Assembly (NCBI GenBank): GCA_949290645.1
Contig: CASESG010000001.1
Location: 5,104 to 69,103, forward strand
DNA length: 64,000 nucleotides
Direction of reading: 5' to 3'
DNA from: an uncultured Bacillota bacterium
GTDB lineage: Bacteria > Bacillota_I > Bacilli_A > RFN20 > CAG-288
The number at the start of each line of letters is the position of its first letter. Within the stretch, counting starts at the first letter, position 1. A program made the position numbers and the translations under genes. Below are positions 175 through 60,835 of the stretch, piece after piece. The notes under the pieces were generated by a model, which was not told the origin of the DNA, did no database searches, and saw only the letters and a list, made by a program, of their open reading frames with translations.

Positions 175-1095
175 TCATTTCAGGCGAGACATCATCTTGT
201 CGATGCATTTTTTCTTCTGGCGATTGTCGGGATGGACATATAGGTTTAGCGTTGTTCCGATGTTGGCGTGTCCCAGGATGGCGCTGAGGGCTTTGTAATC
301 GCATCCGGCTTCCACGCAGCGCGTCGCAAAGCTGTGCCTCAGGCCATGGAAGCGGACTTGCGGCATGTCTAGTTTCTTGAGCAGTCGGGAATAATAGGCC
401 CGAAACGCCCTCGGTTCGAGAGGTTTCTTGCTGTTGGTGAGAACGTAATGGCTCGGCTCGGTGATTTTCCCGATGGACTTCAGCCTTCTCAGCAGAGAAT
501 GGGAAAGCGGGATCTCTCGTTCCGACGAGGAGGTCTTGGGCTTGTCGATGCGAATCTCGGATTTCTTGTTTTCGAAAGAGTAGACTCTCTGTATCGTTCT
601 CCGGATGGTGAGGATTCCCGCTTCCAGGTCGATGTCCTGAAAACGAAGAGAACAGACCTCACCGATTCGAAGGCCTTCTTCGAGGCAAAGGCTGATTCCA
701 AGATTGTGGAAGGAGAAATGGGTGTCCAGATAACGAAGAAGTTTCTTTTGTTCCTCCAACGTGAAAACCGGAAGGTTTCTTTTTTCCTCGAAGACCGGAT
801 ATTGAACGTCGACTTTTTGATAAGGCCAGTTCCCCTTTGAGCATCCGTAATAGTAGATGGATTGTGCCAAAGAGACACGACACTTGATGGTCTTTGCCTT
901 GAGGCCTCGCTTTTTCTGGGAAAGAGCGAAATCTTGCAATTGGCTTTTGAATGGGACTTTCATGGACTGGAAGTAATGGACGAAGACGTTTTCGATGCCC
1001 CATCGATAAAGGGCATATGTCGAGGGCTTGATGTAATCTTTCCGTTCCTCGAGAAAGTCATGGGCGATTTCCATAAATGATTTTTGCACGATCAT
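175..1095 (-). CDS. Tyrosine site-specific recombinase (integrase/invertase family)
   Basis: 306-aa ORF. The catalytic signature is readable: GLRIGE (Arg), HGLRHSFAT (H-x-x-R), LGHANIGTTLNLYVH (His/Tyr region). GGAGG abuts the ATG at 1095, so GTG at 1089 may be the true start. Confidence 0.9.
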   Translation of the reverse strand: MIVQKSFMEIAHDFLEERKDYIKPSTYALYRWGIENVFVHYFQSMKVPFKSQLQDFALSQKKRGLKAKTIKCRVSLAQSIYYYGCSKGNWPYQKVDVQYPVFEEKRNLPVFTLEEQKKLLRYLDTHFSFHNLGISLCLEEGLRIGEVCSLRFQDIDLEAGILTIRRTIQRVYSFENKKSEIRIDKPKTSSSEREIPLSHSLLRRLKSIGKITEPSHYVLTNSKKPLEPRAFRAYYSRLLKKLDMPQVRFHGLRHSFATRCVEAGCDYKALSAILGHANIGTTLNLYVHPDNRQKKKCIDKMMSRLK

Positions 1096-1111
1096 CCTCC
1101 GTCACTAATAT
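1084..1111 (+). promoter_or_regulatory. Candidate sigma-70-type promoter reading into the invertible cassette and methyltransferase operon
   Basis: TTGCAC (1084-1089), 16-nt spacer, TAATAT (1106-1111) on the + strand, just left of the left inverted repeat. Identified by eye only. Confidence 0.3.
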
Positions 1112-1157
1112 TGGCGTCCTGCCTCAATGACGTGCGGAGGCAAAAAGAAAAAGTGTA

Positions 1158-1544
1158 TTAAGCAGGATGCTTAAGGCTCAAAAGTTCCTTAAGTTGCCAC
1201 CAAAGGACGCCTTTTTTGCCCTCAATGCCTGTTTTCGAATGCGTTTTTCGCGCAACAGAATAATCTTGACAAGGAAAGCCAGCAGTCAAAAGGTTGAAAT
1301 CCGGAAGAAGGCTTTTGTCGACCTTGGCAATGTCAATGTTATCTAATCTTTCGGTATTGAAACCAAAACGTTTTTGATAGCAATCAAATGCATACTGCTT
1401 CTTTCTTCCAGGTTCCCATTGATTAGCGTAAACAAAATCAAAACGTTTCTTTTCTTTTGTCTTTCCATCGATGAGACGCACTTTGTTCAAACCGACACGG
1501 AATCCTCCGACTCCAGCAAAAAGTTCTATAGCCGTTGTTTTCAT
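1158..1544 (-). CDS. DNA (cytosine-5)-methyltransferase, N-terminal module (motifs I-IV), inverted relative to the rest of the gene
   Basis: 128-aa ORF MKTTAIELFAGVGGFRVGL...AGFPCQDYSVA...LKHPA. It has the AdoMet motif I (FAGxGG) and the catalytic motif IV (PCQ). It stops at TAA exactly at the IRL boundary. Confidence 0.85.
   Translation of the reverse strand: MKTTAIELFAGVGGFRVGLNKVRLIDGKTKEKKRFDFVYANQWEPGRKKQYAFDCYQKRFGFNTERLDNIDIAKVDKSLLPDFNLLTAGFPCQDYSVARKTHSKTGIEGKKGVLWWQLKELLSLKHPA
1159..1176. repeat. Left inverted repeat (IRL) of the intragenic invertible cassette
   Basis: TAAGCAGGATGCTTAAGG is the exact reverse complement of 1559-1576. The site itself has 7-bp palindromic arms TTAAGCA/TGCTTAA (1158-1164 and 1168-1174) around an asymmetric GGA centre. 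Confidence 0.9.
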
Positions 1545-1558
1545 AACTCAATTATAAT

Positions 1559-1576
1559 CCTTAAGCATCCTGCTTA
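1559..1576. repeat. Right inverted repeat (IRR) of the intragenic invertible cassette
   Basis: CCTTAAGCATCCTGCTTA is the exact reverse complement of 1159-1176. The central trinucleotide is TCC (inverted relative to IRL), which fits inverted rather than direct site orientation. Confidence 0.9.
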
Positions 1577-2432
1577 CGGAATATTGGAGAATGTCAATCG
1601 ACTGGTTCTTTCCCCTAAAAAACAACGGGGAAGAGACTTTGGAATCATCCTTCGATGTTTGGATGATTTGGGATACTCGGCATGCTGGAGAATATTGAAT
1701 GCTGCTGACTATGGATATCCTCAGCGAAGAAGAAGGACCTTCATTTTCATCTATAGAAACGATTTGAATTATTCGAAAGACATTTCAAAGCACGAGCCTG
1801 AGGATGTCCTTTTGAAGGAAAGCATTTTTGCGAAAGCGTTTCCTGTCGATTCTCTTTCCTCATCCCTTTCGACATACTCTTTGGTGGATGACTATCATGA
1901 CCTGGTCGAGGTCTCCGATCGCTTTCGTGCGCATTTCGATAATGCAGGCTGGATGCACAAGGGGATTGTTTACACAGCGAAAGTCAAATCAAAGGAAAAG
2001 CCGATGTGTCCGCTGTCGAACATTGTCCTTCCTTGCACGGACTCTTCTTTCTATCTGACGGACAAGCAGAGGGATCAGTTTTCCTATCTGCGGGGGAAGA
2101 AGAAAGTCCAGAGAAAAGCATCGACAGGGCTCTCCTATCAGTATTGCGAGGGAAGCATGTCTCCTTTTGATTCGCTGGACCTTCCCGGAAGAACGATGCT
2201 GACAAGCGAAGGCTCGGTCAATCGTTCGAGCCACATCATTCCCGATCCCAAGACAGGGCGTCTTCGTTTCCTTACGCCCGTGGAGTGTGAGAGGCTCAAT
2301 GGTTTTCCGGACGGATGGACCGATACGGGCATGCCACGATCCTCGCGCTATTTCATGATGGGAAATGCCCTTGTCTGTGGCATTGTCGAGAAGCTTGGCG
2401 ACCAACTTCTGAAAATCATGAAGGAGGATTGA
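1560..2432 (+). CDS. DNA (cytosine-5)-methyltransferase, C-terminal module (motifs VI-X plus target-recognition region), lacking its own N-terminus in this orientation
   Basis: Reads LKHPAYGILENVNRLV (motif VI ENV), YGYPQRRRRTFIFIY (motif VIII QRR), and FMMGNALVCGIVEKLG (motif X GNA). The track ORF 1374..2432 starts at a TTG, and its first ~62 codons are antisense to the N-terminal module. Confidence 0.85.
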   Translation, partial: LKHPAYGILENVNRLVLSPKKQRGRDFGIILRCLDDLGYSACWRILNAADYGYPQRRRRTFIFIYRNDLNYSKDISKHEPEDVLLKESIFAKAFPVDSLSSSLSTYSLVDDYHDLVEVSDRFRAHFDNAGWMHKGIVYTAKVKSKEKPMCPLSNIVLPCTDSSFYLTDKQRDQFSYLRGKKKVQRKASTGLSYQYCEGSMSPFDSLDLPGRTMLTSEGSVNRSSHIIPDPKTGRLRFLTPVECERLNGFPDGWTDTGMPRSSRYFMMGNALVCGIVEKLGDQLLKIMKED

Positions 2433-2434
2433 TA

Positions 2435-3151
2435 ATGTCCCTTGATGTCTCGTTTCTTCGTCAGTTTTCTTCTTTGATTCAGTCGGCCTATGCCATTCGT
2501 GGAAAGACGATCGAGGAGGTTCAGGCTTGGACTTCAACGGCGACGGTCTCCAAGGCGCAAAGTTATTTCGCAATCCGGAATTTCCTCAAGAAGGCCTGCC
2601 CCAACGATGGCTTGCAATCATTGCTGGATTATGCGGATATCGCTCTCAAGACGATCGCGTTGGACGAAAAAGGGAGGCTGACCGAGAGCATGTCTTTCTC
2701 TGCTTTCGAATTCTGCAAGGTGGCGACGGAATCCTGGGAATCATCGAGCGTTCAAGCGATGTTTTCGAAGAACTTTTGGTTCTTCGTGACCTATCAAAAA
2801 GGAGAAAAGAACGTTGTTCTCACGGACTTCTTCTGGCGACTTTCGAAAGAAGATTTGGCGTCTGTCCAGTGTTTGTACGAAAGCTACCAAAGAAAATTGT
2901 TGCAAGGAGAGGTCTATGCGAAAGACAAAAATAACGCTGTCGTTCCGGCCTTTCGTCTCGATGGATGCCGGGTGTCCCACATTCGCCCGCATGCCGCAAA
3001 CAGAGAAGATACCTTTCCCCTCCCTGTCGCCGATCGCCTGACGGGACGGAAAAGTGCGACGAAGCAATCCTTCTGGTTGGACAAAGCCTATCTTGAGGAG
3101 ATCGTGAGAATCAATCTTTCTCCCGTGGAAAAGGAGGTCATTGGAAAATGA
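2435..3151 (+). CDS. Putative MutH/Sau3AI-family restriction endonuclease or nickase (238 aa)
   Basis: ATG at 2435 lies 2 nt after the methyltransferase stop. The C-terminal SHIRPHAANREDTFPLP...TKQSFWLDKAYLEEIV resembles the MutH/Sau3AI tail (RPKAAN...FYLKK, recalled from memory). Its position directly behind an m5C methyltransferase fits an R-M pair. Confidence 0.45.
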   Translation: MSLDVSFLRQFSSLIQSAYAIRGKTIEEVQAWTSTATVSKAQSYFAIRNFLKKACPNDGLQSLLDYADIALKTIALDEKGRLTESMSFSAFEFCKVATESWESSSVQAMFSKNFWFFVTYQKGEKNVVLTDFFWRLSKEDLASVQCLYESYQRKLLQGEVYAKDKNNAVVPAFRLDGCRVSHIRPHAANREDTFPLPVADRLTGRKSATKQSFWLDKAYLEEIVRINLSPVEKEVIGK

Positions 3152-4374
3152 TGATCGACAAGGAAACTTTGGAGAAGAAAGCGACGAAGCCGCTCAGAAT
3201 TCACGATCAGCTTCAAACCTTCGACACCTATGCGATTCCTCTTGAGAAGCTCTTTTACAACGATCGAAACGGTCGTATCGCGACGTTCATCGATGAGGAA
3301 GAACTGCGCAAAGACCATTCCCGAGAGGAAATCAAGAGGCTGATGGAAGAGGACATCGCCAGGTACAACGACTTCATCGGCAAGGCCATCAAGGGGGCAG
3401 AAAAGCCGGACTCTTACGAAAAGACCCTGAAAGACATCGAGCACAAGGGACAGATGGTCGCGGGCGTCGTGCTGGATGACGGAAGGATCATCGACGGGAA
3501 TCGAAGGTTCACTGTCCTTCGGGAACTCTACCGGAAGAAGGCCGAGCAACGGTTCTCGACGTTCGAAGCGGTCATCCTTCCGGTGCCTGCCTCGGAAACG
3601 GAGCAGAAAGCCATCACCCTTCTGGAACTGGAGCTGCAGCACAACGTCGACAATCAAAGGGACTATTCCCCCATCGATCGACTGGTCGACTTCTACAAAA
3701 AATGCTGCGATGAAAGGACAAGGACGATCTCGGAAGAGGAATACCGATCCTATGCCAACGTTCCGGCGAAAGAGCTGGCAAGCCTCAAGAGACAGACGGA
3801 AATCATGTTGGAATACTTGGAATGGAGGGGACAGCCGAAAGCGTTCTATCTTCTCAAGGAAGAAGATCTCAACGGACCGCTTGTCGAACTTGCCAATGCG
3901 AAAACGAAATTCTCCGAACACAACTGGCTGGAATTCCGGGACTATTTCTTCGCCCAGATCACCTTAGTGTCCGGAGACAAGACAAGAAACATCCGCAACC
4001 TCATCAAGCTGGCCAAGGAATCCCCTGAGCATGTCCGCCAAATGGTGCAGGCGTTGGACAAAGAAGGAGCCTTTCTCGGAAAGGTCGATGACATTCTGAG
4101 GAAGGAAAAGGAAGGGGTGCAGACTCCGGAAGATACCCACGAAAGGCGGAAATTGGGAGAGGACTTCCTGTCCTTGCAAAAGGAGGCGATTTACCAAAAG
4201 GAGAAGGAGAAGAGCCAGAACAGTCCCCTGGAGAAGCTGCGAAAGGCGCAGACGCTTTGCGATGAAGTCCGTTGGCAGGACATCAAGGAGACGACCGGAG
4301 AAAACAGGAAAGAGATCCAGAAAATCCTTGCGGAGATCACTTGCGCCCTGGAGAAGATCAAGGGCTATTTCTAA
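3148..4374 (+). CDS. ParB/Srx-fold (ParB N-terminal nuclease-like) domain protein, 408 aa
   Basis: The ATGA overlap with the upstream gene suggests translational coupling. VVLDDGRIIDGNRRFTVLRELY resembles the ParB-box DGxxR region. The remainder is helical with no family I recognise. Confidence 0.6.
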   Translation: MMIDKETLEKKATKPLRIHDQLQTFDTYAIPLEKLFYNDRNGRIATFIDEEELRKDHSREEIKRLMEEDIARYNDFIGKAIKGAEKPDSYEKTLKDIEHKGQMVAGVVLDDGRIIDGNRRFTVLRELYRKKAEQRFSTFEAVILPVPASETEQKAITLLELELQHNVDNQRDYSPIDRLVDFYKKCCDERTRTISEEEYRSYANVPAKELASLKRQTEIMLEYLEWRGQPKAFYLLKEEDLNGPLVELANAKTKFSEHNWLEFRDYFFAQITLVSGDKTRNIRNLIKLAKESPEHVRQMVQALDKEGAFLGKVDDILRKEKEGVQTPEDTHERRKLGEDFLSLQKEAIYQKEKEKSQNSPLEKLRKAQTLCDEVRWQDIKETTGENRKEIQKILAEITCALEKIKGYF

Positions 4375-6972
4375 ATGGAAAGAAAGGCTTCCTTGGCGGA
4401 TCTGAGCTTTCAGGGGACCTACGATCCCGCGGTTCCCGGACATGATGCCATCGAGGAGCTTTACCTCCCCTGCCTTTCGCTGGCAAAACGATACGATCGC
4501 GTCTCCGCCTATTTTTCCTCCCGTTCCTTGCAGAGCTATGCCAAGGGCCTCCACGCCTTTGCGAGAAACGATGGTCGCATCCGTTTTGTCTTCTCCAATC
4601 AAATTTCGCCAAAGGAAATGGATGACATCGTAGAGGCCTACAAAAGACGTGAGGCACAGATGGTAGAAGACCTGAAGAAGCATTCCGATGAACTCAATGA
4701 CGACTTTGAAGTTGCCAATCTTTCTTATCTGATTCGGCATGGAATCGCAGAAGTGAAGATTGCCTTCATGACGAACGACCTGGATTCCCTGTTTCATCAA
4801 AAGTTCGGGATCTTCACGGATGAACAGGGCTGCTCGGTTGCCTTCAGCGGTTCCAGCAACGAGACCCTGGAGGGCCTGAATTACAATTCGGAACTTCTGG
4901 ATGTCTTCACCCCGAAGGACTCGATGTCGAAGATCGAGGATCGCAAGCAGCGCTTCGAGAAGATTTGGAACGGAACCTATAGTCCCAAGATGCGCGTCTT
5001 CTCGCCCAGCGAGTCCTTTTTCGAGGAACTGGTCGCCTATGATCGTGGGCGTGTCTTCTCCTCTTTGCAAGAGTACCTGGAATGTCGCAAGGAACGGCTT
5101 TCCCTGGACCATGTCCTTTTGGATGTCGATGAACGAGCCAACCATCTTCTCGTCGAGAACCTCCTCTGCCATCCTTCGTGCGACCGTGCCCTGTCGGGGC
5201 TGATGTCTCTCAAGAAAGGCCGGAAAGTCGGTTCCTGGAGCTATCGCTTCCCCGAGATTACCCTTTCCTTGGCACGGGAGATTCAGGAGGCTCTGCGCCG
5301 TCGATTGATTCCGTTCCGAATCTCATCCTCATTGCAATCGGTCCTCGACCAGCTCAACCGGAAGCTGGAGCGCCGGCTCCAATGGGCGCAGAAGATCAAG
5401 CGCGGGGAAGACGAGGATCTCTGGCATGATGACTATGAGGCTTTCCGAAGAGTCGTCGAAAAGAACACGATGGTCCCTCTGAAGGACTTCCAGATGCGTG
5501 CGGCATACTTCCATTATCGATTGATGTCTTCGGCCGATTATTCCGTTCCTGGCTCGGGAAAGACTTTCATCGCCTATGGCCTCTTTGCCTATCTGCGCGC
5601 GACCGGCCAGGCCCATCGCTTGGTCGTTCTCTCTCCGCTCAACGCTTTCATGGCCTGGGAGGAAGAGGGACGGAAGATCTTTGGCGCGGAAAAGCCCCTT
5701 CATTTCTTCAACAGGGAAAAGCAGGATGGCGATTGTGCGGAAACACTGCTCCGCGATCGATACGATGTCTACTTGTTCAATTATGAGTTTCTGAATTCCG
5801 AAGAGAAAGCGGAAGTCGTCCGAAGACTGCTGGATGACAAGACGATGATCGTCTTCGACGAAATTCATCGCATCAAGAATCCGGAAGGAATGCGCGCCGG
5901 ATGGGCCAAACGACTGTTTCGCACCTATCCCCGACCCCTCTTTCGCCTGGCGCTGACGGGAACGCCCTTGCCCAATTCCTTTCAGGACATCCAGAACACG
6001 ATTGAGATTCTCTACTCCGATGACAAGGACCTGTTTGACGCCTTCTGTTCGAAGAATCTTCGGGAGGCCGACCGAAACGAGGCCGTTGCCCAGGAGATTC
6101 GGCGTCAGTTGTATCCGACTTTCATCCGCGTGACCAAGAGCCAATTGCAGATTCCGGAAGCCGAGAAGGACGATCTCGAGACTCTTGCCGTCGAACCGGA
6201 CGAGGGGCAAAGACGGCTGCTTGGAGAGCTGTGGCGCAAGATTCAAAATCCGCTTCTCCTCTTTGTCCGCCTGATCCAGGCGTCCTCGCACCCGGCCTTG
6301 CTGGAAAAGGAAATCGATGACGGAACGTGGGAGGAACTGGACCTCTCGCTCGAGGGCAAGCCGACCGAAAGGTGGACCTTGTCCGCCGAAAGCCAGGAAT
6401 ACCTTCGTCTCCATCCGCTGTCCCGAAAGACTCTGACGGCCCTTTCTCATATCCAATCCGCCGCACAAGAAGGGAGGAAGGCCCTGCTCTGGTGCCTGTT
6501 CCTGGACACGATCGATTCTTGCCAAGGATGGCTGGAGAAGGAGGGTGTCCGCGTTCTCTCCGTGACGGGAAGGGATTCGGAGCGGCAAAGGGAGGAGAAG
6601 ATTCGTCTCTTTCGCGACGGTGATGTCTCGGTCCTTGTCACCAACCCCAACACGTTGGCGGAATCGGTGTCCTTGCACCAGACATGCCACGAAGCGGTCT
6701 ATCTCGAATATGGCTTCAACCTCACCTACCTGATCCAGTCCAAGGACCGCATCCATCGCGTCGGTCTGCCTCCGGGCACCAAGACCCGTTACCTCTTTGC
6801 CATCACGGAAGGCGATGAAGCGCGCGGTTCTTCGATCGATCGTCGGATTCTCGAACGGCTGGAAAGAAAGAACGAAAGGATGCGCAAGACGATCGAAAGC
6901 GACGACTTGGCTTTGGAAGTCGATCGTCAGACGCTCCTGGAAAGCATTCGGGATATTTTGGAAAATCCATAA
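4375..6972 (+). CDS. Fusion of an N-terminal PLD-family nuclease domain and an SNF2/SF2 helicase (865 aa)
   Basis: Starts directly after the upstream TAA. PLD HxK motif: LFHQKFGIFTD...FSGSSNET. Helicase motifs: VPGSGKTF (I), VFDEIHRIKN (II, DEIH), LTGTPLPNS (III), and C-lobe VLVTNPNTLAESVSLH...LIQSKDRIHRVGL (V-VI). Confidence 0.8.
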   Translation: MERKASLADLSFQGTYDPAVPGHDAIEELYLPCLSLAKRYDRVSAYFSSRSLQSYAKGLHAFARNDGRIRFVFSNQISPKEMDDIVEAYKRREAQMVEDLKKHSDELNDDFEVANLSYLIRHGIAEVKIAFMTNDLDSLFHQKFGIFTDEQGCSVAFSGSSNETLEGLNYNSELLDVFTPKDSMSKIEDRKQRFEKIWNGTYSPKMRVFSPSESFFEELVAYDRGRVFSSLQEYLECRKERLSLDHVLLDVDERANHLLVENLLCHPSCDRALSGLMSLKKGRKVGSWSYRFPEITLSLAREIQEALRRRLIPFRISSSLQSVLDQLNRKLERRLQWAQKIKRGEDEDLWHDDYEAFRRVVEKNTMVPLKDFQMRAAYFHYRLMSSADYSVPGSGKTFIAYGLFAYLRATGQAHRLVVLSPLNAFMAWEEEGRKIFGAEKPLHFFNREKQDGDCAETLLRDRYDVYLFNYEFLNSEEKAEVVRRLLDDKTMIVFDEIHRIKNPEGMRAGWAKRLFRTYPRPLFRLALTGTPLPNSFQDIQNTIEILYSDDKDLFDAFCSKNLREADRNEAVAQEIRRQLYPTFIRVTKSQLQIPEAEKDDLETLAVEPDEGQRRLLGELWRKIQNPLLLFVRLIQASSHPALLEKEIDDGTWEELDLSLEGKPTERWTLSAESQEYLRLHPLSRKTLTALSHIQSAAQEGRKALLWCLFLDTIDSCQGWLEKEGVRVLSVTGRDSERQREEKIRLFRDGDVSVLVTNPNTLAESVSLHQTCHEAVYLEYGFNLTYLIQSKDRIHRVGLPPGTKTRYLFAITEGDEARGSSIDRRILERLERKNERMRKTIESDDLALEVDRQTLLESIRDILENP

Positions 6973-7027
6973 GACAACCGCTTTTCCGTCCGATGTTTCG
7001 GCCATTGCCGTGTTCGCCTTTTGAGCG

Positions 7028-7036
7028 TGGTAAAAT
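7028..7036 (+). promoter_or_regulatory. Candidate extended -10 promoter element for the DUF2130-like gene
   Basis: TGgTAAAAT at 7028-7036, followed by GGGAGGA (7045-7051) and ATG at 7060. No convincing -35 was seen. Confidence 0.3.
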
Positions 7037-7059
7037 AATGTCATGGGAGGAAGGCAAAC

Positions 7060-8448
7060 ATGGAAATTCAGGTCTCCGTGAAGGACAAGGACACCCTTGT
7101 CTTGCAAACGGATGCACATGTCGGGGACATCATCTGCCTCAACAAGATCAGCAATGTCGATCTGTCGGCCATCCAGGACCTTTTGTCCAGGGAGATGGAG
7201 AGAGAAGTCCAGAAGAAGATCCAGGAAGCTCTTTCCCGCCAGCAGAGGGAACTGGAGGCGACACATGCTGCGGAACTCCAGAAGAGTCTCGCCGGACGGG
7301 ACGAACAGTGGAGAGTGAAGAACCAGGAATTGGAGAAGAGCCTTTCGGAAGTCCGACATCAGAAGGACATGGCGCTCAAGGAAAAGGAGGCCGAACTTCA
7401 ATCTCTACATGAAATTCAAAAGACGGCTCTTGAAAACAAGGAATTGGAAGTTCGCCAATCCCTTCAGAAAGAACTCAACGATCAGAAACTTTTGAATCAG
7501 AATCTTAACCTGCAGCTGGAGAATCAGCAGAAGATTCACGAGCAGGAGAAAGAAAACATCCGAAAGATGACGGCCCTGGAAACGGAGAACCGGTTCAACA
7601 AGGAAAAGGAAGAGATGAAGGATTCCTTTGTCCGGGAAAGGGAGGAACTGGAGCGCCAGATTGCCCAGCTCCAGAACACCAAGGCCTCCCTCAACGTGAA
7701 AAGGATCGGGGAGAACCTCGAGCAATGGTGTTCCAACGAAGTTCTGTCCTATATGCAGAACGGCTTTTCCAACTGCCTTTGGAAGAAGGACAACGCTGTC
7801 GTCCAGGAGGAAAACGAGGCGCACGGAAGCAAGGCCGACTATCTTTTCTGGATCTATGCCTCGGAAGAGAAAAAGGAGGAGGAGCTTCTGGCCGGGATCT
7901 GCTTGGACATGAAAGACGAAAACCCGGATTCCACCAATCGGAAGACCAACAGCGACTATTTCCGACAGCTGGACCGGAATCGCACGAAAAAGCATTGCAA
8001 ATACGCCGTCCTGGTCTCTAACCTGGAACTCGATCGTCCCAACGACATCCCGATCTATCGTGTCCAGGAATATCCCGACATGTACGTCGTTCGCCCGGCC
8101 TATCTCATGACCTTCCTCAACATGATTGTCTCCTTGACGACGTATTTCTCGAAGATGATTCTCAAGGATCGGGACAAGACCAACAAGGAAATCGCCTTCG
8201 ACGAATACCACAGGAAATTCGAGGAACTGAAGAATACCTATCTCGACAAGCCCTTGGCCTCGCTGTCGAAGTCGATCGAGGAGCTGTACAAGCAGAACGA
8301 GGCCATCAGCAAGGCCAGCGACCGGATTTCCGAGACGCTGGACGGCATCAAGAGAAGCTATCTCCAACAGATTGAGGAGAAGCTCGCACGCCTCTCCGAA
8401 AAGCTCGGTGCGGAAGAGCGGAAGTATCTTCGCAAAATCGGACAATGA
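7060..8448 (+). CDS. DUF2130-like coiled-coil protein with a C-terminal nuclease-like core (462 aa)
   Basis: A long E/K/Q-rich coiled coil is followed by GENLEQWC...KADYLFWIY...GICLDMKDE...DRNRTKKHCKYAVLVSNLE...YPDMYVVRP. This matches my recollection of the conserved DUF2130 core. Confidence 0.6.
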   Translation: MEIQVSVKDKDTLVLQTDAHVGDIICLNKISNVDLSAIQDLLSREMEREVQKKIQEALSRQQRELEATHAAELQKSLAGRDEQWRVKNQELEKSLSEVRHQKDMALKEKEAELQSLHEIQKTALENKELEVRQSLQKELNDQKLLNQNLNLQLENQQKIHEQEKENIRKMTALETENRFNKEKEEMKDSFVREREELERQIAQLQNTKASLNVKRIGENLEQWCSNEVLSYMQNGFSNCLWKKDNAVVQEENEAHGSKADYLFWIYASEEKKEEELLAGICLDMKDENPDSTNRKTNSDYFRQLDRNRTKKHCKYAVLVSNLELDRPNDIPIYRVQEYPDMYVVRPAYLMTFLNMIVSLTTYFSKMILKDRDKTNKEIAFDEYHRKFEELKNTYLDKPLASLSKSIEELYKQNEAISKASDRISETLDGIKRSYLQQIEEKLARLSEKLGAEERKYLRKIGQ

Positions 8449-8540
8449 CAAGAAAAAAGCGGAATCGGATAGGAATCTTGCCTCGAAGCGGAGTATAATT
8501 TCATCGAAAATTGTAAAGATTTCCCCGGAGAAAGAAACGT

Positions 8541-10526
8541 ATGAAAAGCAAACTCCGATTCTTGGCGCCGTTCTTCGCCTTGGCCTTGACGGCCTGTGAG
8601 AACTTTCCTCGACCGAGCTTTCCCCTCTTGAGCAGCGGTTCCTCCGTGCAAAACTCCTCGGAGGACACCTCCCTTTCCTCGGACGATCCGACTTCTTCGA
8701 CGACCTCTTCCTCCACTTCTTCTTCGGCGTCTTCTTCCTCTTCTAACTCATCGTCTTCGACGTCCACGGGTCCGATACAGGAAGAGAAGGCGACGGTACG
8801 GGTCTCTTCGGACATCGTCGGGGGAGCGGTCGTGCTGGAAGGATACGGGACGGAAGCCGAGGTTCCTCTCGGCACGGAAATCCATCTCCTCGCGACACCG
8901 GAGGAAGGATATTCCCTGACGGAACTGACGGTCAATTCGGTTTCGGTCCTTTCGACTTTGTCTTTCGTCGCCGAGGAAAAGACGACGTACCTGGTCGAGG
9001 CAGAGTTCACCGAGGAAGTCGTCACCGTGACGGAGGGGGCCATTCGCTTTGCGGGCCTCGATCAAGACGGCAGCCTCAGCTTGGACGAGTCGAATCTTGT
9101 CCTGGAGAATGTCGACGTCGCTTCCGTCTCTTCTTCGGGACTCTTCCATGACAGCGAGAACGATTCTTCGAATTTCCGCATGGCCACGGGAAAGAATGCC
9201 GGCATGGTCACCTTCTGCTTCTCCGAGGAAATCACGATCGAGGAAGTCGTCCTCCATTACGAGCCTTATCATAACGACACGCCGGAGGTCACGGTCTCCA
9301 CGGACTCGCAATCCTTGGCCCAAGGAGAATCCTCAAGAACATACGACTTTGGTGGAGAACTTACGAGTCTACTGAAAATTCAATGTCCAAGTGGAAAACG
9401 AATCATTCTTTCTGGAATTGACATTTTTTTCAAGGAAATCGAGGTTGTCCCAGTCCCTGCGACGATTTCCATCACCAATGAAGGAAACGGAGATGTTTCG
9501 ATCAGCCCGAGCTCGGAGTGGATGGTCGGAGATACGATCACGGTCACGGCAACTCCAGAGGAGGGGAACTATCTCTCGCGGCTGACTTTGAACGGTGCGA
9601 ATGGAAAATCCCTTGGCAACAGCCGCTATTCATTCGTCATCAAGGACGTGTCCAACACGTTGTCGGCAATCTTCCGCGAGCGCGGCGCGATCTCGGAGGA
9701 TTATTCCTACCTCTATGCGAACGAGTCGATCTTCCCCGATCGCGGAAATCAGTCCGTCGACATCGACGAATACTACGAACCGATCCGCGGGCTTTCGGGC
9801 CTGGCCCTGAAGGAAGGCCTTCACGACATCATCGACGATCACGAGGAGTTTTCCTATGATTCCGCCAACGATTCGCTCCCGGTGATCGACACCGATCCCT
9901 TTGACAGCGGAAAAGTCCACCTGATCTATCAAAGCCAATTGAAGAACCGGGGCGTTTCCTTCAACAAGGAGCACACCTGGGCCAAGAGCCATGGCGACTT
10001 CGGCACGAGAAAGCCGATGGGGTCGGATCTCCACAACCTCCGAATGTGCCACAACAACCTCAACTCGACAAGGAGCCACCTGGATTTCGCTGAAGTGAGT
10101 CATTCCTCTTCCACCAGCGTCGTCGACAAATACGACTGGGCCCAATCCGATATGGAAGGGAACTATCGCGGGAGCAACTACTTTGAGCCGCAGGACGAAT
10201 GGAAGGGCGATGTCGCACGCATCATCTTCTACATGGCGACAAGGTATGACGGAGGCTCGGGCGAGGTCGATCTGGAGGTCTCGGGCGATATCGACACCAC
10301 GCGCTTCTACGACTTCTCTTCCGGAGCGGACGGACTTCACGGAAACTTCGCCGACCTCTATGAGTGGGCGACGTCCGGAATCGATCCCGTCGACGACTAC
10401 GAGGTCAGCCGCAACAACGTCTGCGACCAGGAATATCAGCACAATCGCAATCCCTTCATCGACCATCCGGAGTTCATCATCATGATCTATGACAAGAACT
10501 ACGATGGCCCGGGTGCCTTGATGTAA
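8541..10526 (+). CDS. Surface lipoprotein with a C-terminal endonuclease I / extracellular (ribo)nuclease domain
   Basis: Signal peptide plus lipobox FFALALTAC. Ser-rich linker SSTTSSSTSSSASSSSSNSSSST. C-terminal FNKEHTWAKSHGDFG...GSDLHNLRMCHNNLNSTRS resembles the Endonuclease_1/Bsn family. Confidence 0.75.
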   Translation: MKSKLRFLAPFFALALTACENFPRPSFPLLSSGSSVQNSSEDTSLSSDDPTSSTTSSSTSSSASSSSSNSSSSTSTGPIQEEKATVRVSSDIVGGAVVLEGYGTEAEVPLGTEIHLLATPEEGYSLTELTVNSVSVLSTLSFVAEEKTTYLVEAEFTEEVVTVTEGAIRFAGLDQDGSLSLDESNLVLENVDVASVSSSGLFHDSENDSSNFRMATGKNAGMVTFCFSEEITIEEVVLHYEPYHNDTPEVTVSTDSQSLAQGESSRTYDFGGELTSLLKIQCPSGKRIILSGIDIFFKEIEVVPVPATISITNEGNGDVSISPSSEWMVGDTITVTATPEEGNYLSRLTLNGANGKSLGNSRYSFVIKDVSNTLSAIFRERGAISEDYSYLYANESIFPDRGNQSVDIDEYYEPIRGLSGLALKEGLHDIIDDHEEFSYDSANDSLPVIDTDPFDSGKVHLIYQSQLKNRGVSFNKEHTWAKSHGDFGTRKPMGSDLHNLRMCHNNLNSTRSHLDFAEVSHSSSTSVVDKYDWAQSDMEGNYRGSNYFEPQDEWKGDVARIIFYMATRYDGGSGEVDLEVSGDIDTTRFYDFSSGADGLHGNFADLYEWATSGIDPVDDYEVSRNNVCDQEYQHNRNPFIDHPEFIIMIYDKNYDGPGALM

Positions 10527-12727: not shown

Positions 12728-13359
12728 CTTTTCTCTCTTGAGAGCTCGAGGCTTTTTCTGACCTTTTCCAGGACGAAGAAATCCGACAAGGTATCGTTCA
12801 AGACGAGGCTGACCCACGTCCTCTTGTTCATGTGATAAGCCGGCAGAACCCCGAGTGTCATGAAGGGGTCGATGTCGTCATTCCGGACATTCAGGAGGTC
12901 GATTCTCTCCTCTTCCCTGTGGATTTTTCTTCCTTCGATCTCGACGAGCAAGGCGAACCATTTCTTGCTTTCGTTTCTCAAGACGGCGAACTCGGGATAC
13001 TTCTCAAAGATGTGGGCAAAAGGAGAGCCCAATTCCTTTTCCAATATCGTATAAATCCGATTTGTTTGTTCAGAAGCATAACGATAGATTGCACATTTCG
13101 AAAGGATGTCTTTGAGCAACATCTCTTTTTCTTCCTTGAGAGGTGTCAGAAACTCTCCCGCTTGATCCAGGTTCACCAGCGGATATGGATCTCCGCTCGT
13201 CTTGTCGATCAAATGGAAGGAGAGGATGTTGTCCTGGACTCGGATCTGGGCCTGGAAAACACCTTTTCTGAAGTCCTTCTCCAAGAGAAAACCAGCCTTG
13301 CCCGGACGAAAGCCATAGTTGAGAAGAAGCTCTTTTGGAAAGACGTAGTTTCCTTTCAT
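12706..13359 (-). CDS. MmcQ/YjbR-family protein
   Basis: The C-terminal KKWFALLVEIEGR...LPAYHMNKRTWVSLVLNDTLSD resembles the YjbR/MmcQ fold signature. Confidence 0.55.
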   Translation of the reverse strand: MKGNYVFPKELLLNYGFRPGKAGFLLEKDFRKGVFQAQIRVQDNILSFHLIDKTSGDPYPLVNLDQAGEFLTPLKEEKEMLLKDILSKCAIYRYASEQTNRIYTILEKELGSPFAHIFEKYPEFAVLRNESKKWFALLVEIEGRKIHREEERIDLLNVRNDDIDPFMTLGVLPAYHMNKRTWVSLVLNDTLSDFFVLEKVRKSLELSREKSQRTLSL

Positions 13360-14744
13360 CTTCCCATCCTCGCTTTCATCGCGGAAAGGATTTCGTCGAC
13401 GTGCTTCTTGAGCTCTCTCTTTCCGAAATCGGTGTGGAGGATGAAGTCGAGCTGATGCCGGTTCTTGTCATAGGAATTGATCTTGTTGAAGGAGAGTCTC
13501 TCCTCGATGTCCTTCTCCTTCCTCTCCTTCAGGTGCTCGACTTGTCTTGTCGTCTCCACTCCGACGAGGAAGGTGAAGAGGTCTTCGAAATGGGCATCGA
13601 AGAGCAGAGGGACTTCCACCGCCTTGTCTTTGCCATCGTTGTCGTTGAGGAAAGACTCGACTCTTCTTCTCAGCTTGGGATAGAGGAAACGGTTGTAGCG
13701 AAGGCGGAAGGAAGGGTCTTCGGTCAAAAGCCGGCTCAGCTCTTTCTTGTCCAGTTTCGGAAGGAAGAGACGAGGGAATTTCTTTTTGGCTTCCTTGAGA
13801 AACTCCTCCTCGCCGTAGATCTTCCGGACTTCCTCGTCTAGGGAGAGAACCAAGAGTCCCCTCTCCTTCAGGTAATGGCAGACAAGGCTTTTTCCGGAGC
13901 CGATCTTTCCGGTCACGGCGACGGAGAAACCGGTCTTCTGGCAGGCCGGGCAGAAGTGTGTTCCTCGTCCCTTGAAGACTCTCTTCTGGATGGTGTTTTT
14001 CTGACATCTCAGGCATTTCTTTCCCTCTCGTCCATAGACTTTCAGGAAGGACTGCATCTCCCCATGGGTCGTGGGACTGGCCTTGTAGGTCCGGATGGTC
14101 GATCCGTTGTTTGCGATGGCTAAGCTGAGAATCCTTTTTGCCTCCTCGACGATTCTTTCGCATTGCCTCAATGTGATCTTGGAGGCCAAGTGGAAGGGAG
14201 AAATCTCGCTAGCGAAGAGGATCTCGTCGGCATAGATGTTTCCGATTCCGGAGATGATGTGCTGATCGAGGAGACATTCCTTGATGGATTTTCGACCGGT
14301 CGAGAGCTTGTCCTTCAATTCCTGGCCCTTGATCTCGAACGGTTCCCTCCCGAGCTTGGAAAGAGGGCCTTCCTCCTTCTCGGAGAGATAATGACAGGTT
14401 CCGAATTTCCGGACGTCATAGAAGGCAAGGCCCTTGTCGGAGGAACAAAAGGGGAGGAAGAGGGAGAGATGAGCGAGACTGTGCCTTTCCTTGTCGACGA
14501 CGAAAAGCTTTCCCTCCATCCGCAGGTGGAAGACAAGTTTCTTCTCGTCGCTGAGATGAACCAGGAGGAATTTTCCTCGTCGGCTCAGGGAGAGGATTCT
14601 TTTTCCCGGAATCTCCTTGAGGAAGGAAGAAAGAGGGGTCTGGAGAAGACGTTTGACAAAGAGGGTCGGCGTGTCGAGGACTTGTCCGACGATCTCCGGC
14701 TCCAGAGTCCTTTTCACGGTCTCGACTTCGGGCAGTTCCGGCAT
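13356..14744 (-). CDS. mutM: Fusion protein: formamidopyrimidine-DNA glycosylase (Fpg/MutM) plus dephospho-CoA kinase (CoaE)
   Basis: MPELPEVETV N-terminus (start chosen at 14744), zinc finger CLRCQ...FCPACQ, then immediately VAVTGKIGSGKS (the CoaE P-loop) in the same frame. Confidence 0.85.
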   Translation of the reverse strand: MPELPEVETVKRTLEPEIVGQVLDTPTLFVKRLLQTPLSSFLKEIPGKRILSLSRRGKFLLVHLSDEKKLVFHLRMEGKLFVVDKERHSLAHLSLFLPFCSSDKGLAFYDVRKFGTCHYLSEKEEGPLSKLGREPFEIKGQELKDKLSTGRKSIKECLLDQHIISGIGNIYADEILFASEISPFHLASKITLRQCERIVEEAKRILSLAIANNGSTIRTYKASPTTHGEMQSFLKVYGREGKKCLRCQKNTIQKRVFKGRGTHFCPACQKTGFSVAVTGKIGSGKSLVCHYLKERGLLVLSLDEEVRKIYGEEEFLKEAKKKFPRLFLPKLDKKELSRLLTEDPSFRLRYNRFLYPKLRRRVESFLNDNDGKDKAVEVPLLFDAHFEDLFTFLVGVETTRQVEHLKERKEKDIEERLSFNKINSYDKNRHQLDFILHTDFGKRELKKHVDEILSAMKARMGR

Positions 14745-14745
14745 C

Positions 14746-60798: not shown

Positions 60799-60806
60799 GA
60801 GGTGAT

Positions 60807-60835
60807 TTGACTCCTTTTCGTGCAACTGGTATCAT
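60807..60835 (+). promoter_or_regulatory. Candidate promoter of the tracrRNA
   Basis: TTGACT (60807-60812), 17-nt spacer, TATCAT (60830-60835). Divergent from cas9. Confidence 0.5.

What the first reader, a model, noticed from the sequence alone, without database searches (positions are those of the whole stretch)
3148..6972. Translationally coupled ParB-like protein and PLD-nuclease/SNF2-helicase fusion as the likely effector core
Seen in the sequence:
- The ParB-like ORF starts in an ATGA overlap with the preceding gene, and its TAA is immediately followed by the ATG of the 865-aa PLD-SNF2 ORF. This implies stoichiometric co-expression.
- The fusion places a nuclease-type PLD domain (LFHQKFGIF...GSSNET) N-terminal to helicase motifs I, II (DEIH), III and V-VI.

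Inference: ParB-fold proteins can be NTP-dependent DNA clamps or nucleases, so a DNA-loading or sensing ParB partner for a translocating nuclease would be an unusual pairing. I could not tie the roughly 280 C-terminal residues of the ParB-like protein to any family.
Basis: partly seen in the sequence, partly recalled or inferred. Interest (0 to 1): 0.7.

Follow-up and report, generated by a model that had tools for sequence, protein, structure and literature searches.

The report
AbiR-like ParB plus nuclease-motor defence pair
The two genes are real and are an almost invariably linked pair: a ParB-fold protein and a nuclease fused to a DNA motor, which most likely form the cutting core of an AbiR-type, methylation-gated anti-phage system, here in an unusual version that uses a dead copy of a restriction-enzyme domain as its DNA reader.

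Summary
In detail: ATGA overlap at 3148-3151, TAA|ATG abutment at 4372-4377, an intact HKD motif and all SNF2 motifs.

The 408-aa protein has a ParB/Srx-CTPase fold (AF2 pLDDT 92.7; best PDB matches pNOB8 ParB-N, ParB-CDP, Noc, KorB). It belongs to a large family (1,920 clusters at 50% identity) with no Pfam, NCBIfam or PADLOC model.

An SNF2 helicase follows the ParB-like gene in 75 of 77 genome loci with enough sequence, and 58 of those helicases carry the N-terminal HKD nuclease.

A third gene usually sits upstream. It is either a roughly 900-aa sigma70-like multi-winged-helix protein or a catalytically dead Sau3AI C-terminal domain. A Sau3AI-type C5 methylase lies nearby in 38 of 80 loci.

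This matches, domain for domain, AbiRa/b/c of Lactococcus lactis pKR223. That phage-resistance system is toxic without the GATC methylase M.LlaKR2I, and its mechanism is unknown. I could not obtain AbiR sequences, so the match rests on architecture only.

The window holds a variant: no AbiRa, a stand-alone dead Sau3AI-C reader, and an in-operon methylase whose 5' end lies on an invertible segment, OFF here.

It is not a partition ParB or a type III Res. The pairing is not unprecedented.

The parts
175..1095 (-). Tyrosine recombinase, the candidate invertase for the dcm 5' switch.
   Evidence: Pfam Phage_integrase E=4.6e-30; NCBIfam XerA/XerC/XerD-like and DNA invertase hits. A homologous recombinase is present in L001, L007 and L009, which also carry the switch.
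1159..1183 (.). Left arm of the 25-nt inverted repeat (18-nt perfect core TAAGCAGGATGCTTAAGG).
   Evidence: pair I3. The same repeat lies at the same place in L001.
1161..1544 (-). 5' segment of the C5 cytosine methylase gene: 128 codons carrying motif I FAGVGGF and motif IV GFPCQ. It is inverted relative to the rest of the gene, so the gene is OFF.
   Evidence: Pfam DNA_methylase positions 2-103 on the minus strand. The repeat encodes LKHPA in both frames. Inversion gives an in-frame 413-aa Dcm with all motifs, the same length as Dcm in related loci.
1552..1576 (.). Right arm of the inverted repeat.
1575..2432 (+). 3' part of the dcm gene (ENV, QRRRR, TRD and GNA motifs). It is M.Sau3AI/LlaKR2I-type by association.
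   Evidence: Pfam DNA_methylase positions 97-323, E=3.6e-31; PADLOC MTase_II E=4.9e-102. It falls in the same BLAST cluster as the Dcm genes that sit beside catalytic Sau3AI-like enzymes in other loci.
2435..3151 (+). Stand-alone homologue of the non-catalytic C-terminal effector domain of Sau3AI (238 aa). Proposed GATC reader.
   Evidence: PDB sequence hits to Sau3AI residues 317-503 and to Sau3AI-C (2reu), E=2e-7. NCBIfam restrict_Sau3AI positions 298-474 of 475. DIALK replaces the catalytic G[IV]ELK, and the TESMSF motif of the C-domain is present. A 31%-identical protein sits next to the same pair on an L. plantarum plasmid.
3148..4374 (+). ParB/Srx-CTPase-fold protein, AbiRb-like (408 aa). 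Box I-like YNDRNGRIAT at 3256-3285, box II-like DGNRRF at 3493-3510, box III-like LELELQ at 3622-3639, GDKTRNIR at 3973-3996.
   Evidence: AF2 pLDDT 92.7, pTM 0.83. Foldseek top hits 5k5d, 7bnk, 7nfu, 8qa9 and 6ky4. 45 of 76 family members weakly hit Pfam ddrB-ParB. Invariant N38, N41, R43, G117, N118, R119, R120, E160, Q164, D277, R280, R283.
4375..6972 (+). HKD (PLD-type) nuclease fused to an SNF2 translocase, AbiRc-like and PbeA-like (865 aa). HKD at 4795-4866, Walker A at 5542-5565, DEIH at 5857-5868, motif III at 5953-5967, motif V at 6643-6675, motif VI at 6736-6765.
   Evidence: Pfam. PADLOC PbeA N-terminal 222 residues, E=4.7e-65. Profile against PDB: SNF2/Rad54 1z63 E=9e-29; PLD6/Zucchini-type hit at aa 128-207. 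Invariant motif residues.
7060..8448 (+). DUF2130 protein with a coiled-coil N-terminus. Membership uncertain; probably accessory or unrelated.
   Evidence: Pfam DUF2130 E=5e-34. It is present downstream only in the closest relative L001 (54% identity), and not in the other window-type loci. No PADLOC hit.

Best explanation
ORFs 3148-4374 and 4375-6972 are the two constant subunits of an AbiR-family defence system. One is a ParB/Srx-CTPase-fold protein (AbiRb-like). The other is a single-HKD nuclease fused to an SNF2 double-strand DNA translocase (AbiRc-like, PbeA-like).

In this window they form one tightly packed operon with two other genes:
- a Sau3AI/LlaKR2I-type C5 cytosine methylase, which marks the host's own DNA;
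- a stand-alone, catalytically dead copy of the Sau3AI C-terminal effector domain, which takes the place of the sigma70-like AbiRa subunit.

Proposed mechanism:
1. The dead Sau3AI-C protein binds GATC sites that lack the 5mC mark (inferred).
2. The ParB-fold protein, whose nucleotide pocket is conserved, acts as an NTP-gated adaptor or clamp between the site-bound reader and the motor (inferred).
3. The SNF2 motor translocates on duplex DNA using ATP (inferred from the family).
4. Each chain has only one HKD motif, so two motor-nucleases must come together to form an active site and cut (inferred from Nuc/BfiI-type HKD nucleases, own knowledge).
5. Methylation by the operon's Dcm protects the host.

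The methylase is switched by recombinase-driven inversion of its 5' coding segment.

Shown here: Taken from the literature on AbiR: phage resistance, and toxicity without the methylase. Inferred: the order of events and the role of the ParB-fold protein.
For: Linkage:
- The helicase follows the ParB-like gene in 75 of 77 loci with downstream sequence. Starts overlap or abut in 70 of 71.
- The same pair occurs on 66 plasmids with no ParA directly beside it in the four annotated regions inspected.

ParB fold and pocket:
- AF2 pLDDT 92.7. Best PDB matches are ParB-N, ParB-CDP, Noc, KorB and sulfiredoxin.
- Invariant DGNRR and N-x-x-N-x-R. Weak ddrB-ParB Pfam hits in 45 of 76 members.

Nuclease-motor:
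- HKD and SNF2 motifs are invariant. The PbeA HKD module hits at E=5e-65. PbeA is an HKD endoDNase fused to an SF2 helicase (PMC10853773).

Link to Sau3AI-type methylation:
- One Dcm family is present in 38 of 80 loci.
- L024 is a fusion of full Sau3AI to the sigma70-like protein. The roughly 515-aa proteins join a dead Sau3AI-C domain to the C-terminal 260 aa of the sigma70-like protein.
- None of the 12 window-type loci has a catalytic Sau3AI.
- The same four genes occur in a different order on L. plantarum plasmid NZ_CP110243.

Role of the Sau3AI C-domain:
- It is a non-catalytic effector that binds GATC (bioRxiv 10.64898/2026.04.21.719898).

AbiR:
- AbiRa is sigma70-like. AbiRb is ParB-like, with best PDB hit 5K5D as here. 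AbiRc has a restriction-endonuclease-like N-domain plus Snf2.
- A complex of the three is predicted. Function needs M.LlaKR2I, the system is toxic without it, and phage DNA replication is impaired (PMC13064643).
- LlaKR2I and Sau3AI both cut GATC (PMC4471560).

Conflict-system signature:
- Some family members carry an N-terminal Swt1-like HEPN domain.
Against: - Homology to the pKR223 AbiR proteins could not be tested by sequence. The records and the two primary papers are not held here. PADLOC 2.0 gave no hit for the ParB-like or sigma70-like proteins.
- 17 of 75 helicases lack the HKD domain, so the family does not always need this nuclease.
- About half the loci have no methylase within 8 kb, so methylation gating may not be general.
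- The methylase is OFF in this assembly and in L001, while the downstream genes are intact and have their own ribosome-binding sites. This is hard to reconcile with toxicity in the absence of methylation.
- No direct evidence exists for NTP binding or for a complex in this variant.
Confidence: 0.65

Rival explanations
1. Abortive-infection (toxin/antitoxin-like) mode. The pair does not restrict incoming DNA. Instead it degrades the host's own (and phage) DNA when methylation or the sensor subunit is perturbed by phage, killing or arresting the cell. The methylase acts as an antitoxin.
For: - AbiR was classified as an Abi system. It is toxic without the methylase and lowers phage DNA replication (PMC13064643; PMC3985639 lists AbiRa-c among toxic Abis).
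- HEPN fusions in the family are typical of suicide systems.
- The Aravind-group reappraisal proposes the same alternative for PbeA-containing systems.
Against: - The gene content is that of a restriction-modification system: a site reader derived from a restriction enzyme, a cognate methylase and a motor-nuclease.
- Toxicity without the methylase is also what any R-M system shows.
- The Dcm-OFF state seen in two MAGs would be lethal under this model as well.
Confidence: 0.15
2. The ParB-fold protein is itself the effector (a nuclease or NTP-depleting enzyme, as proposed for some ParB/Srx proteins). The SNF2 protein serves as sensor or remodeller, and the HKD domain is an optional extra.
For: - 17 of 75 helicases have no HKD domain, yet they keep the ParB-like partner.
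- ParB/Srx proteins with nicking and NTPase activity are cited in PMC12839542.
- The DGNRR motif resembles the DGQQR/DGQHR of GmrSD and DndB (own knowledge; a weak GmrSD_N hit).
Against:
- Nothing in the model or the matches suggests a nuclease metal site in the ParB-like protein.
Confidence: 0.1
3. The ParB-like protein assists DNA modification rather than restriction, as DpdB does in the Dpd system or DndB in the Dnd system.
For: - DpdB and DndB are ParB-superfamily proteins in modification modules.
- The gene lies in an operon with a methylase here.
Against: - About half the loci have the pair but no methylase within 8 kb.
- Linkage is to the helicase, not to the methylase, and the methylase often lies on the other strand or on the far side.
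Confidence: 0.03
4. An ordinary partition ParB next to a standard type III Res (or another canonical R-M helicase) by coincidence.
For: - NCBI names some members 'ParB/RepB/Spo0J family partition protein'.
- Pfam ResIII hits the helicase.
- On one L. lactis plasmid the pair follows a type III Mod-Res pair.
Against: - No ParBc Pfam hit.
- No ParA adjacent in any of the four annotated plasmid regions; the nearest, in L085, is about 8 kb away.
- The window is chromosomal, between housekeeping genes.
- The helicase is SNF2-family with an N-terminal HKD domain, no C-terminal PD-(D/E)xK domain and no adjacent Mod gene.
- Where a type III Res is present (L085), it is an additional gene, not this one.
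Confidence: 0.02

Closest known systems
AbiR (AbiRa/AbiRb/AbiRc) of Lactococcus lactis plasmid pKR223, with the LlaKR2I methylase
   Same: - A ParB-like subunit whose best PDB match is 5K5D.
- A subunit with a restriction-endonuclease-like N-domain plus a Snf2 ATPase.
- Genetic and functional coupling to a GATC-specific, Sau3AI-type R-M methylase.
- The sigma70-like third subunit is present in most related loci.
(PMC13064643.)
   Different: - The window has no AbiRa. A 238-aa dead Sau3AI-C protein sits in its place.
- The methylase is inside the operon and phase-variable.
- No catalytic Sau3AI/LlaKR2I enzyme is present.
- Sequence homology to the pKR223 proteins was not testable here.
PbeA of the PbeABCD (CxC ABC-ATPase/DndE) system
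   Same: An N-terminal HKD endoDNase fused to an SF2 helicase. The HKD module is the best PADLOC match (E=4.7e-65; PMC10853773).
   Different: - The partners differ: PbeB (small protein), PbeC (CxC ABC ATPase) and PbeD (DndE-like) are absent here.
- The helicase here is SNF2-family.
- The self mark is cytosine methylation, not phosphorothioate.
Sau3AI (type IIE restriction enzyme) and MutH
   Same: The methylase belongs to the family found beside Sau3AI-like enzymes.
   Different: - The catalytic N-domain is missing.
- The catalytic glutamate is replaced (DIALK, against G[IV]ELK).
- Cleavage is presumably handed over to a separate motor-nuclease.
SauUSI and CglI/NgoAVII-type ATP-dependent PLD restriction enzymes
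   Same: A PLD-family nuclease working with an SF2 ATPase in NTP-dependent restriction (CglI/NgoAVII are cited in PMC6459918). SauUSI-like genes occur in the same islands (cluster c6).
   Different: - SauUSI is a single chain with a DUF3427 reader and is modification-dependent.
- In CglI/NgoAVII the PLD domain sits on the DNA-binding R protein, not on the helicase.
- None of these has a ParB-fold subunit.
ParB-CTPase clamps (ParB, Noc, KorB) and ParB-fold proteins in defence (GmrSD/BrxU DUF262, DndB, DpdB)
   Same: The fold and the conserved arginine pair of the P-motif. The fold can bind CTP, ATP or GTP, and specificity cannot be predicted from sequence (PMC12704722).
   Different: - A separate family with no ParBc, GmrSD_N or DndB Pfam assignment.
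- It is not fused to HNH.
- No ParA or parS context.
- Its constant partner is an SNF2 motor.

Membership tests
AbiR (L. lactis pKR223) | AbiRb: ParB-like subunit | tested here: met
   The AF2 model's best PDB hit is 5k5d, the same entry reported for AbiRii. This is an architectural match only.
AbiR (L. lactis pKR223) | AbiRc: restriction-endonuclease-like N-domain plus Snf2 ATPase | tested here: met
   HKD plus SNF2, against the description in PMC13064643.
AbiR (L. lactis pKR223) | AbiRa: sigma70-like subunit of about 820 aa in the same operon | tested here: not met
   Absent from the window. The upstream gene is a 238-aa Sau3AI-C homologue. The sigma70-like subunit is present in most other loci of the family.
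AbiR (L. lactis pKR223) | Coupling to a Sau3AI/LlaKR2I-type (GATC) methylase that prevents toxicity | tested here: inconclusive
   Genetic linkage to a Dcm of the Sau3AI-associated family is clear. Functional dependence and GATC specificity are not testable with these tools.
AbiR (L. lactis pKR223) | Sequence homology to the pKR223 AbiRa-c proteins | not testable with these tools
   The record and the primary papers are not held.
Partition ParB (ParABS) | ParBc/HTH domains recognised by Pfam, and an adjacent ParA | tested here: not met
   No Pfam or NCBIfam ParB assignment; the best is E=0.007, far below the cut-off. No ParA directly beside the pair in four annotated plasmid loci; the nearest, in L085, is about 8 kb away.
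ParB/Srx-CTPase fold (superfamily) | The fold, plus the conserved G-x-R-R P-motif | tested here: met
   Nucleotide binding itself was not tested.
Type III restriction Res subunit | SF2 helicase with a C-terminal PD-(D/E)xK nuclease and an adjacent Mod methylase | tested here: not met
   The nuclease is an N-terminal HKD domain. Only about 70 residues follow motif VI. The neighbouring methylase is a C5 enzyme.
PbeABCD | PbeC (CxC ABC ATPase) and PbeD (DndE-like) alongside PbeA | tested here: not met
   A PADLOC scan of all six operon-region proteins found only PbeA-type hits, and only on the HKD-helicase.
DISARM | DrmA helicase plus DrmB (DUF1998), with DrmC (PLD) and DrmD or DrmE | tested here: not met
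   Only weak DrmD hits to the generic helicase C-domain (E=7.6e-10). No DrmA or DrmB among the neighbours.
Sau3AI-family type II restriction endonuclease | A catalytic MutH-like domain with D...E-x-K (G[IV]ELK) | tested here: not met

The most novel reading that the evidence does not exclude
The ParB-fold subunit is a true NTP-gated DNA clamp. It is loaded at unmethylated GATC sites by a domesticated, catalytically dead restriction-enzyme domain, and it then licenses or tethers a dimerising HKD-SNF2 motor-nuclease. That would be the first ParB-CTPase-type clamp working inside a restriction system. It would also explain how the 25-year-old AbiR system works.
Probability: 0.25. Interest if true: 0.8.

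Novelty: new variant of a known kind. Interest (0 to 1): 0.55.

Why it matters
AbiR has been known as a phage-resistance determinant since 2000, but a 2026 review still states that it is unclear how its components act.

What this window and its relatives show:
- The ParB-like/SNF2 pair is a widespread module: 1,920 clusters at 50% identity, 353 species-representative genomes, and common on Enterococcus faecalis plasmids.
- The module is plugged into different readers and R-M systems.
- A stand-alone dead Sau3AI effector domain, Sau3AI-AbiRa fusions and the cognate C5 methylase together point to a concrete, testable model: a GATC-methylation-gated, ATP-dependent restriction machine with a ParB-fold switch.

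The work also supplies tractable versions for experiments on L. plantarum and E. faecalis plasmids. It adds an example of phase variation of a methylase by inversion of its 5' coding segment.

Tried and rejected
Family scans and identification attempts:
- Pfam, NCBIfam and PADLOC scans of the ParB-like protein gave nothing usable.
- The A2 profile of the ParB-like family against PDB sequences gave nothing.
- phmmer of the HKD domain alone against PDB gave nothing, so the review's 7CLG match for AbiRiii could not be reproduced by sequence.
- Both structure-prediction jobs went to the ParB-like and sigma70-like proteins, so no model of the HKD-SNF2 protein was made.

Known systems considered and rejected, because their defining partners are absent:
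- PbeABCD, DISARM, Dpd, GmrSD and type III R-M.

Literature:
- Searches for ParB+SNF2+PLD/HKD combinations found no description of the triad.
- The lactococcal Abi review then supplied the AbiR match.
- pKR223 GenBank record AF216814 (accession from memory) and the primary papers PMC110594 and PMC1426540 are not held.

Other leads:
- The third homology search, on the sigma70-like protein, was swamped by near-identical E. faecalis sequences and yielded only about 12 diverse homologues.
- The resulting AF2 model (pLDDT 85, pTM 0.41) matches only tandem winged-helix proteins, weakly, and shows no nuclease domain.
- The reconstructed ON-state Dcm (413 aa) is not present as an exact sequence in the 15-billion-protein collection, so I have no direct evidence of the ON state in this species.
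- The promoter and terminator scan of 1000-8700 was at background level.
- GATC is only mildly under-represented in the window (observed/expected 0.76), which is uninformative.

Full report
**1. Observation**

The coordinates and features are as described.
- The upstream ORF ends with TGA at 3149-3151 and the 408-aa ORF starts with ATG at 3148, giving an ATGA overlap. A second in-frame ATG follows at 3151. A strong AAAGGAGGT lies 8 nt upstream.
- The TAA at 4372-4374 abuts the ATG at 4375 of the 865-aa ORF.
- The gene before is equally tight: dcm TGA at 2430-2432 and reader ATG at 2435, behind GAAGGAGGA.
- The 865-aa protein has Pfam PLDc_2, SNF2-rel_dom, ResIII and Helicase_C.
- In an alignment of 30 homologues, H141, K143, G159, S160, N162 (HKD motif), S390-T397 (Walker A), D495/E496/H498, G529/T530/P531, motif V and Q788...R792...R795/G797 are invariant (coordinates).
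- A profile of this family hits SNF2/Rad54 structures at up to E=9e-29, and hits the Zucchini/PLD6-type nuclease over aa 128-207.

**2. The ParB-like protein**

No Pfam, NCBIfam or PADLOC model reaches significance. The protein nevertheless heads a large family.
- There are more than 1,386 clusters at 90% identity.
- A profile search finds 1,920 representatives at 50% identity, 420 of them at E≤1e-30.
- AlphaFold2 with 76 sequences gives pLDDT 92.7 and pTM 0.83.
- The best PDB matches are the pNOB8 ParB N-domain (5k5d), M. xanthus ParB-CDP (7bnk), Noc (7nfu), KorB (8qa9) and sulfiredoxin (6ky4). The next hits are noise.
- TM-scores of about 0.6, normalised on targets of 220-250 residues, mean that both the N-terminal nucleotide-binding domain and the following helical DNA-binding module superpose.
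- The remainder (about aa 270-408) consists of long helices, including a 46-residue helix.
- Invariant residues lie where I recall ParB boxes I, II and III to be (own knowledge of the B. subtilis Spo0J sequence): N38/N41/R43 in YNDxNGR, G117/N118/R119/R120 in DGNRR, and E160/Q164 in LELxLQ.
- 45 of 76 members give weak hits to Pfam ddrB-ParB.
- A published survey shows that this fold can bind CTP, ATP or GTP, and that specificity cannot be read from sequence (PMC12704722).

**3. Conservation of the pair**

A scan of one genome per species found 353 relatives, of which 80 loci were fetched.
- tblastn with the window proteins and all-against-all clustering of the neighbours show an SNF2 helicase immediately downstream in 75 loci.
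- Three of the other five are cut by a contig end. Only L066 and L067 truly lack the helicase.
- A helicase start codon lies within -17 to +18 nt of the ParB-like stop in 70 of 71 loci.
- 58 helicases carry the HKD motif. 17 are short forms, fifteen of about 620-640 aa and two of 758 aa, without it.
- The pair is also on 66 plasmids, 52 of them from Enterococcus. It is annotated 'hypothetical protein' plus 'DEAD/DEAH box helicase', has no adjacent ParA, and in E. lactis lies next to a type I R-M system.
- The window itself is chromosomal, with PolA, DnaE, PNPase, UvrA and Cas9 nearby.

**4. The third component and the link to Sau3AI**

The gene upstream of the ParB-like gene takes one of three forms.

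(a) An 800-1,000-aa protein.
- It often has two RNA-polymerase-alpha-CTD-like HhH domains at the N-terminus, and usually a sigma70 region-4 HTH.
- It has about 550 further residues. In an AF2 model (pLDDT 85) these form an array of winged helices with no nuclease match.
- NCBI names it 'sigma factor-like helix-turn-helix DNA-binding protein'.

(b) A protein of about 515 aa. It joins a Sau3AI C-domain-like module to the last roughly 260 residues of form (a).

(c) A protein of about 230 aa that is the Sau3AI C-domain alone. This is the window's form.

Further links to Sau3AI:
- L024 fuses a complete Sau3AI to form (a).
- Genuine catalytic Sau3AI-like enzymes (PD...G[IV]ELK...KERLVLN) and one family of C5 methylases are further neighbours. 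Dcm is present in 38 of 80 loci, for example L050/L052: Sau3AI - Dcm - (b) - (a) - ParB-like - HKD-SNF2.

The window protein (2435-3151):
- It matches Sau3AI residues 317-503 and the isolated C-domain structure 2reu at E=2e-7.
- It has DIALK where the catalytic domain has G[IV]ELK, and it carries the C-domain signature TESMSF.
- The Sau3AI C-domain is a non-catalytic effector that binds a GATC site (bioRxiv 10.64898/2026.04.21.719898).
- In the 12 window-type loci no catalytic Sau3AI is present, so the HKD domain is the only recognisable nuclease.
- The same four genes occur in another order on L. plantarum plasmid NZ_CP110243: dcm, ParB-like, HKD-SNF2, then a 247-aa MutH-like protein with IKLK...KESMSF, plus vsr.
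- On an L. lactis plasmid a more distant pair follows a type III Mod-Res pair.
- Some family members carry an N-terminal Swt1-like HEPN domain.

**5. What it is**

A 2026 review of lactococcal Abi systems describes AbiR of pKR223 (PMC13064643).
- AbiRa is sigma70-like, about 820 aa.
- AbiRb is ParB-like, with best structural match 5K5D.
- AbiRc has an ATP-dependent restriction-endonuclease-like N-domain plus a Snf2 ATPase.
- A complex of the three is confidently predicted.
- AbiR requires the LlaKR2I methylase, is toxic without it, and impairs phage DNA replication. Its mechanism is unknown.
- LlaKR2I is related to Sau3AI and cuts GATC (PMC4471560).

This is the same triad and the same R-M partner as found here. 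I therefore assign the pair to the AbiR family with about 85% confidence. PADLOC 2.0 has no model that hits the ParB-like or sigma70-like proteins. The HKD module is closest to PbeA (E=4.7e-65), an HKD endoDNase fused to an SF2 helicase (PMC10853773). The PbeB, PbeC and PbeD partners are absent.

**6. Mechanism**

Best-supported model:
- Dcm marks the host's own GATC sites.
- The dead Sau3AI-C protein reads unmarked GATC.
- The ParB-fold protein acts as an NTP-gated adaptor or clamp.
- The SNF2 motor translocates.
- Two single-HKD chains must pair to cut.

Shown here: Taken from the AbiR literature: phage resistance and methylase-dependent protection. Inferred: everything about the order of events and the function of the ParB-fold protein.

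Points against generality:
- HKD-less helicases make up 17 of 75.
- About half the loci have no methylase within 8 kb.

Rivals are abortive-infection self-targeting (0.15), the ParB-fold protein as the effector (0.10), a modification helper (0.03), and partition ParB or type III Res (0.02).

**7. Regulation (seen in passing but relevant)**

The methylase gene is split.
- Codons 1-128 (motifs I and IV) lie on the minus strand at 1161-1544. The remainder lies on the plus strand from 1575.
- A 25-nt inverted repeat (1159-1183 and 1552-1576, with an 18-nt perfect core) flanks the inverted piece and encodes LKHPA in both arms.
- Inversion restores an in-frame 413-aa Dcm with all motifs.
- A tyrosine recombinase lies next door (175-1095).
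- L001 has the same repeat and is also OFF.
- L007 (OFF) and L009 (ON) have a different perfect repeat of 25-39 nt in opposite orientations.
- One public contig of this species breaks near the expected switch position (L084).

It is unexplained how cells tolerate the OFF state if the downstream genes, each with its own ribosome-binding site, remain expressed.

**8. Verdict**

- This is a new variant of a known but mechanistically unsolved system.
- Interest is moderate to good. The comparative data turn AbiR into a testable methylation-gated motor-nuclease model with a ParB-fold switch.

Noticed in passing
window 175-2432 (inverted repeats 1159-1183 and 1552-1576); also L001:6030-6447, L007:5729-6667, L009:5728-6684: The C5 methylase gene is interrupted by inversion of its first 128 codons. 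Inverted repeats flank the segment and a tyrosine recombinase lies next to it. The gene is OFF here and in L001. L007 is OFF and L009 is ON. Inversion would restore a 413-aa enzyme. This is a phase-variable methylase heading the defence operon. It is unclear how the OFF state avoids self-restriction.
   Followed up: partly
L024:4055-7990; L031:4023-5576 and similar loci (L035, L041, L050, L052, L057, L075, L079): Fusion proteins link Sau3AI to the sigma70-like AbiRa-type protein. L024 is a full Sau3AI fused to it (1,311 aa). A set of proteins of about 515 aa joins a dead Sau3AI-C domain to its last 260 or so residues.
   Followed up: partly
L085 (L. lactis plasmid NZ_CP087603.1) 4008-12022: A more distant ParB-like/helicase pair overlaps the end of a type III Mod-Res operon. 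The pair can therefore be attached to R-M systems other than the Sau3AI type.
   Followed up: no
P0289, P0309, P0326, P0352 (family members): Some ParB-like family members carry an N-terminal Swt1-like HEPN (RNase) domain. Others have an unassigned C-terminal extension of about 160 aa.
   Followed up: no
L081 (E. faecalis pQZ076-2) 4402-10077; P0368: The HKD-less triad (sigma factor-like protein of 864 aa, ParB-like of 405 aa, helicase of 620 aa) is very common in E. faecalis. The sigma-like protein is seen on 778 contigs. No nuclease domain is recognisable in any of the three proteins.
   Followed up: partly
window 7060-8448: A DUF2130 protein with a long coiled-coil N-terminus lies directly downstream of the helicase. 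It is conserved there only in the closest relative, L001. Its role is unknown.
   Followed up: no
window 8541-10526: A predicted lipoprotein with a serine-rich linker, InlB B-repeat-like domains and a C-terminal Endonuclease I domain. It is probably a surface or secreted nuclease.
   Followed up: no
window 56395-60825 (-): A full-length Cas9 (REC, HNH, RuvC and PI domains) is present, so the same 64-kb stretch also carries a type II CRISPR-Cas locus. I did not look for the array.
   Followed up: no
window 13356-14777 (-): A single ORF combines Fpg (formamidopyrimidine-DNA glycosylase: N-terminal domain, H2TH and zinc finger) with dephospho-CoA kinase (CoaE).
   Followed up: no
whole window: The tetranucleotide CTAG is strongly avoided (19 observed against 96 expected). 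GATC is only mildly low (438 against 578).
   Followed up: no
L017 (Spiroplasma sp.): The cassette appears fragmented when read with genetic code 11. This is probably because Spiroplasma reads UGA as Trp, not because the genes are decayed.
   Followed up: no
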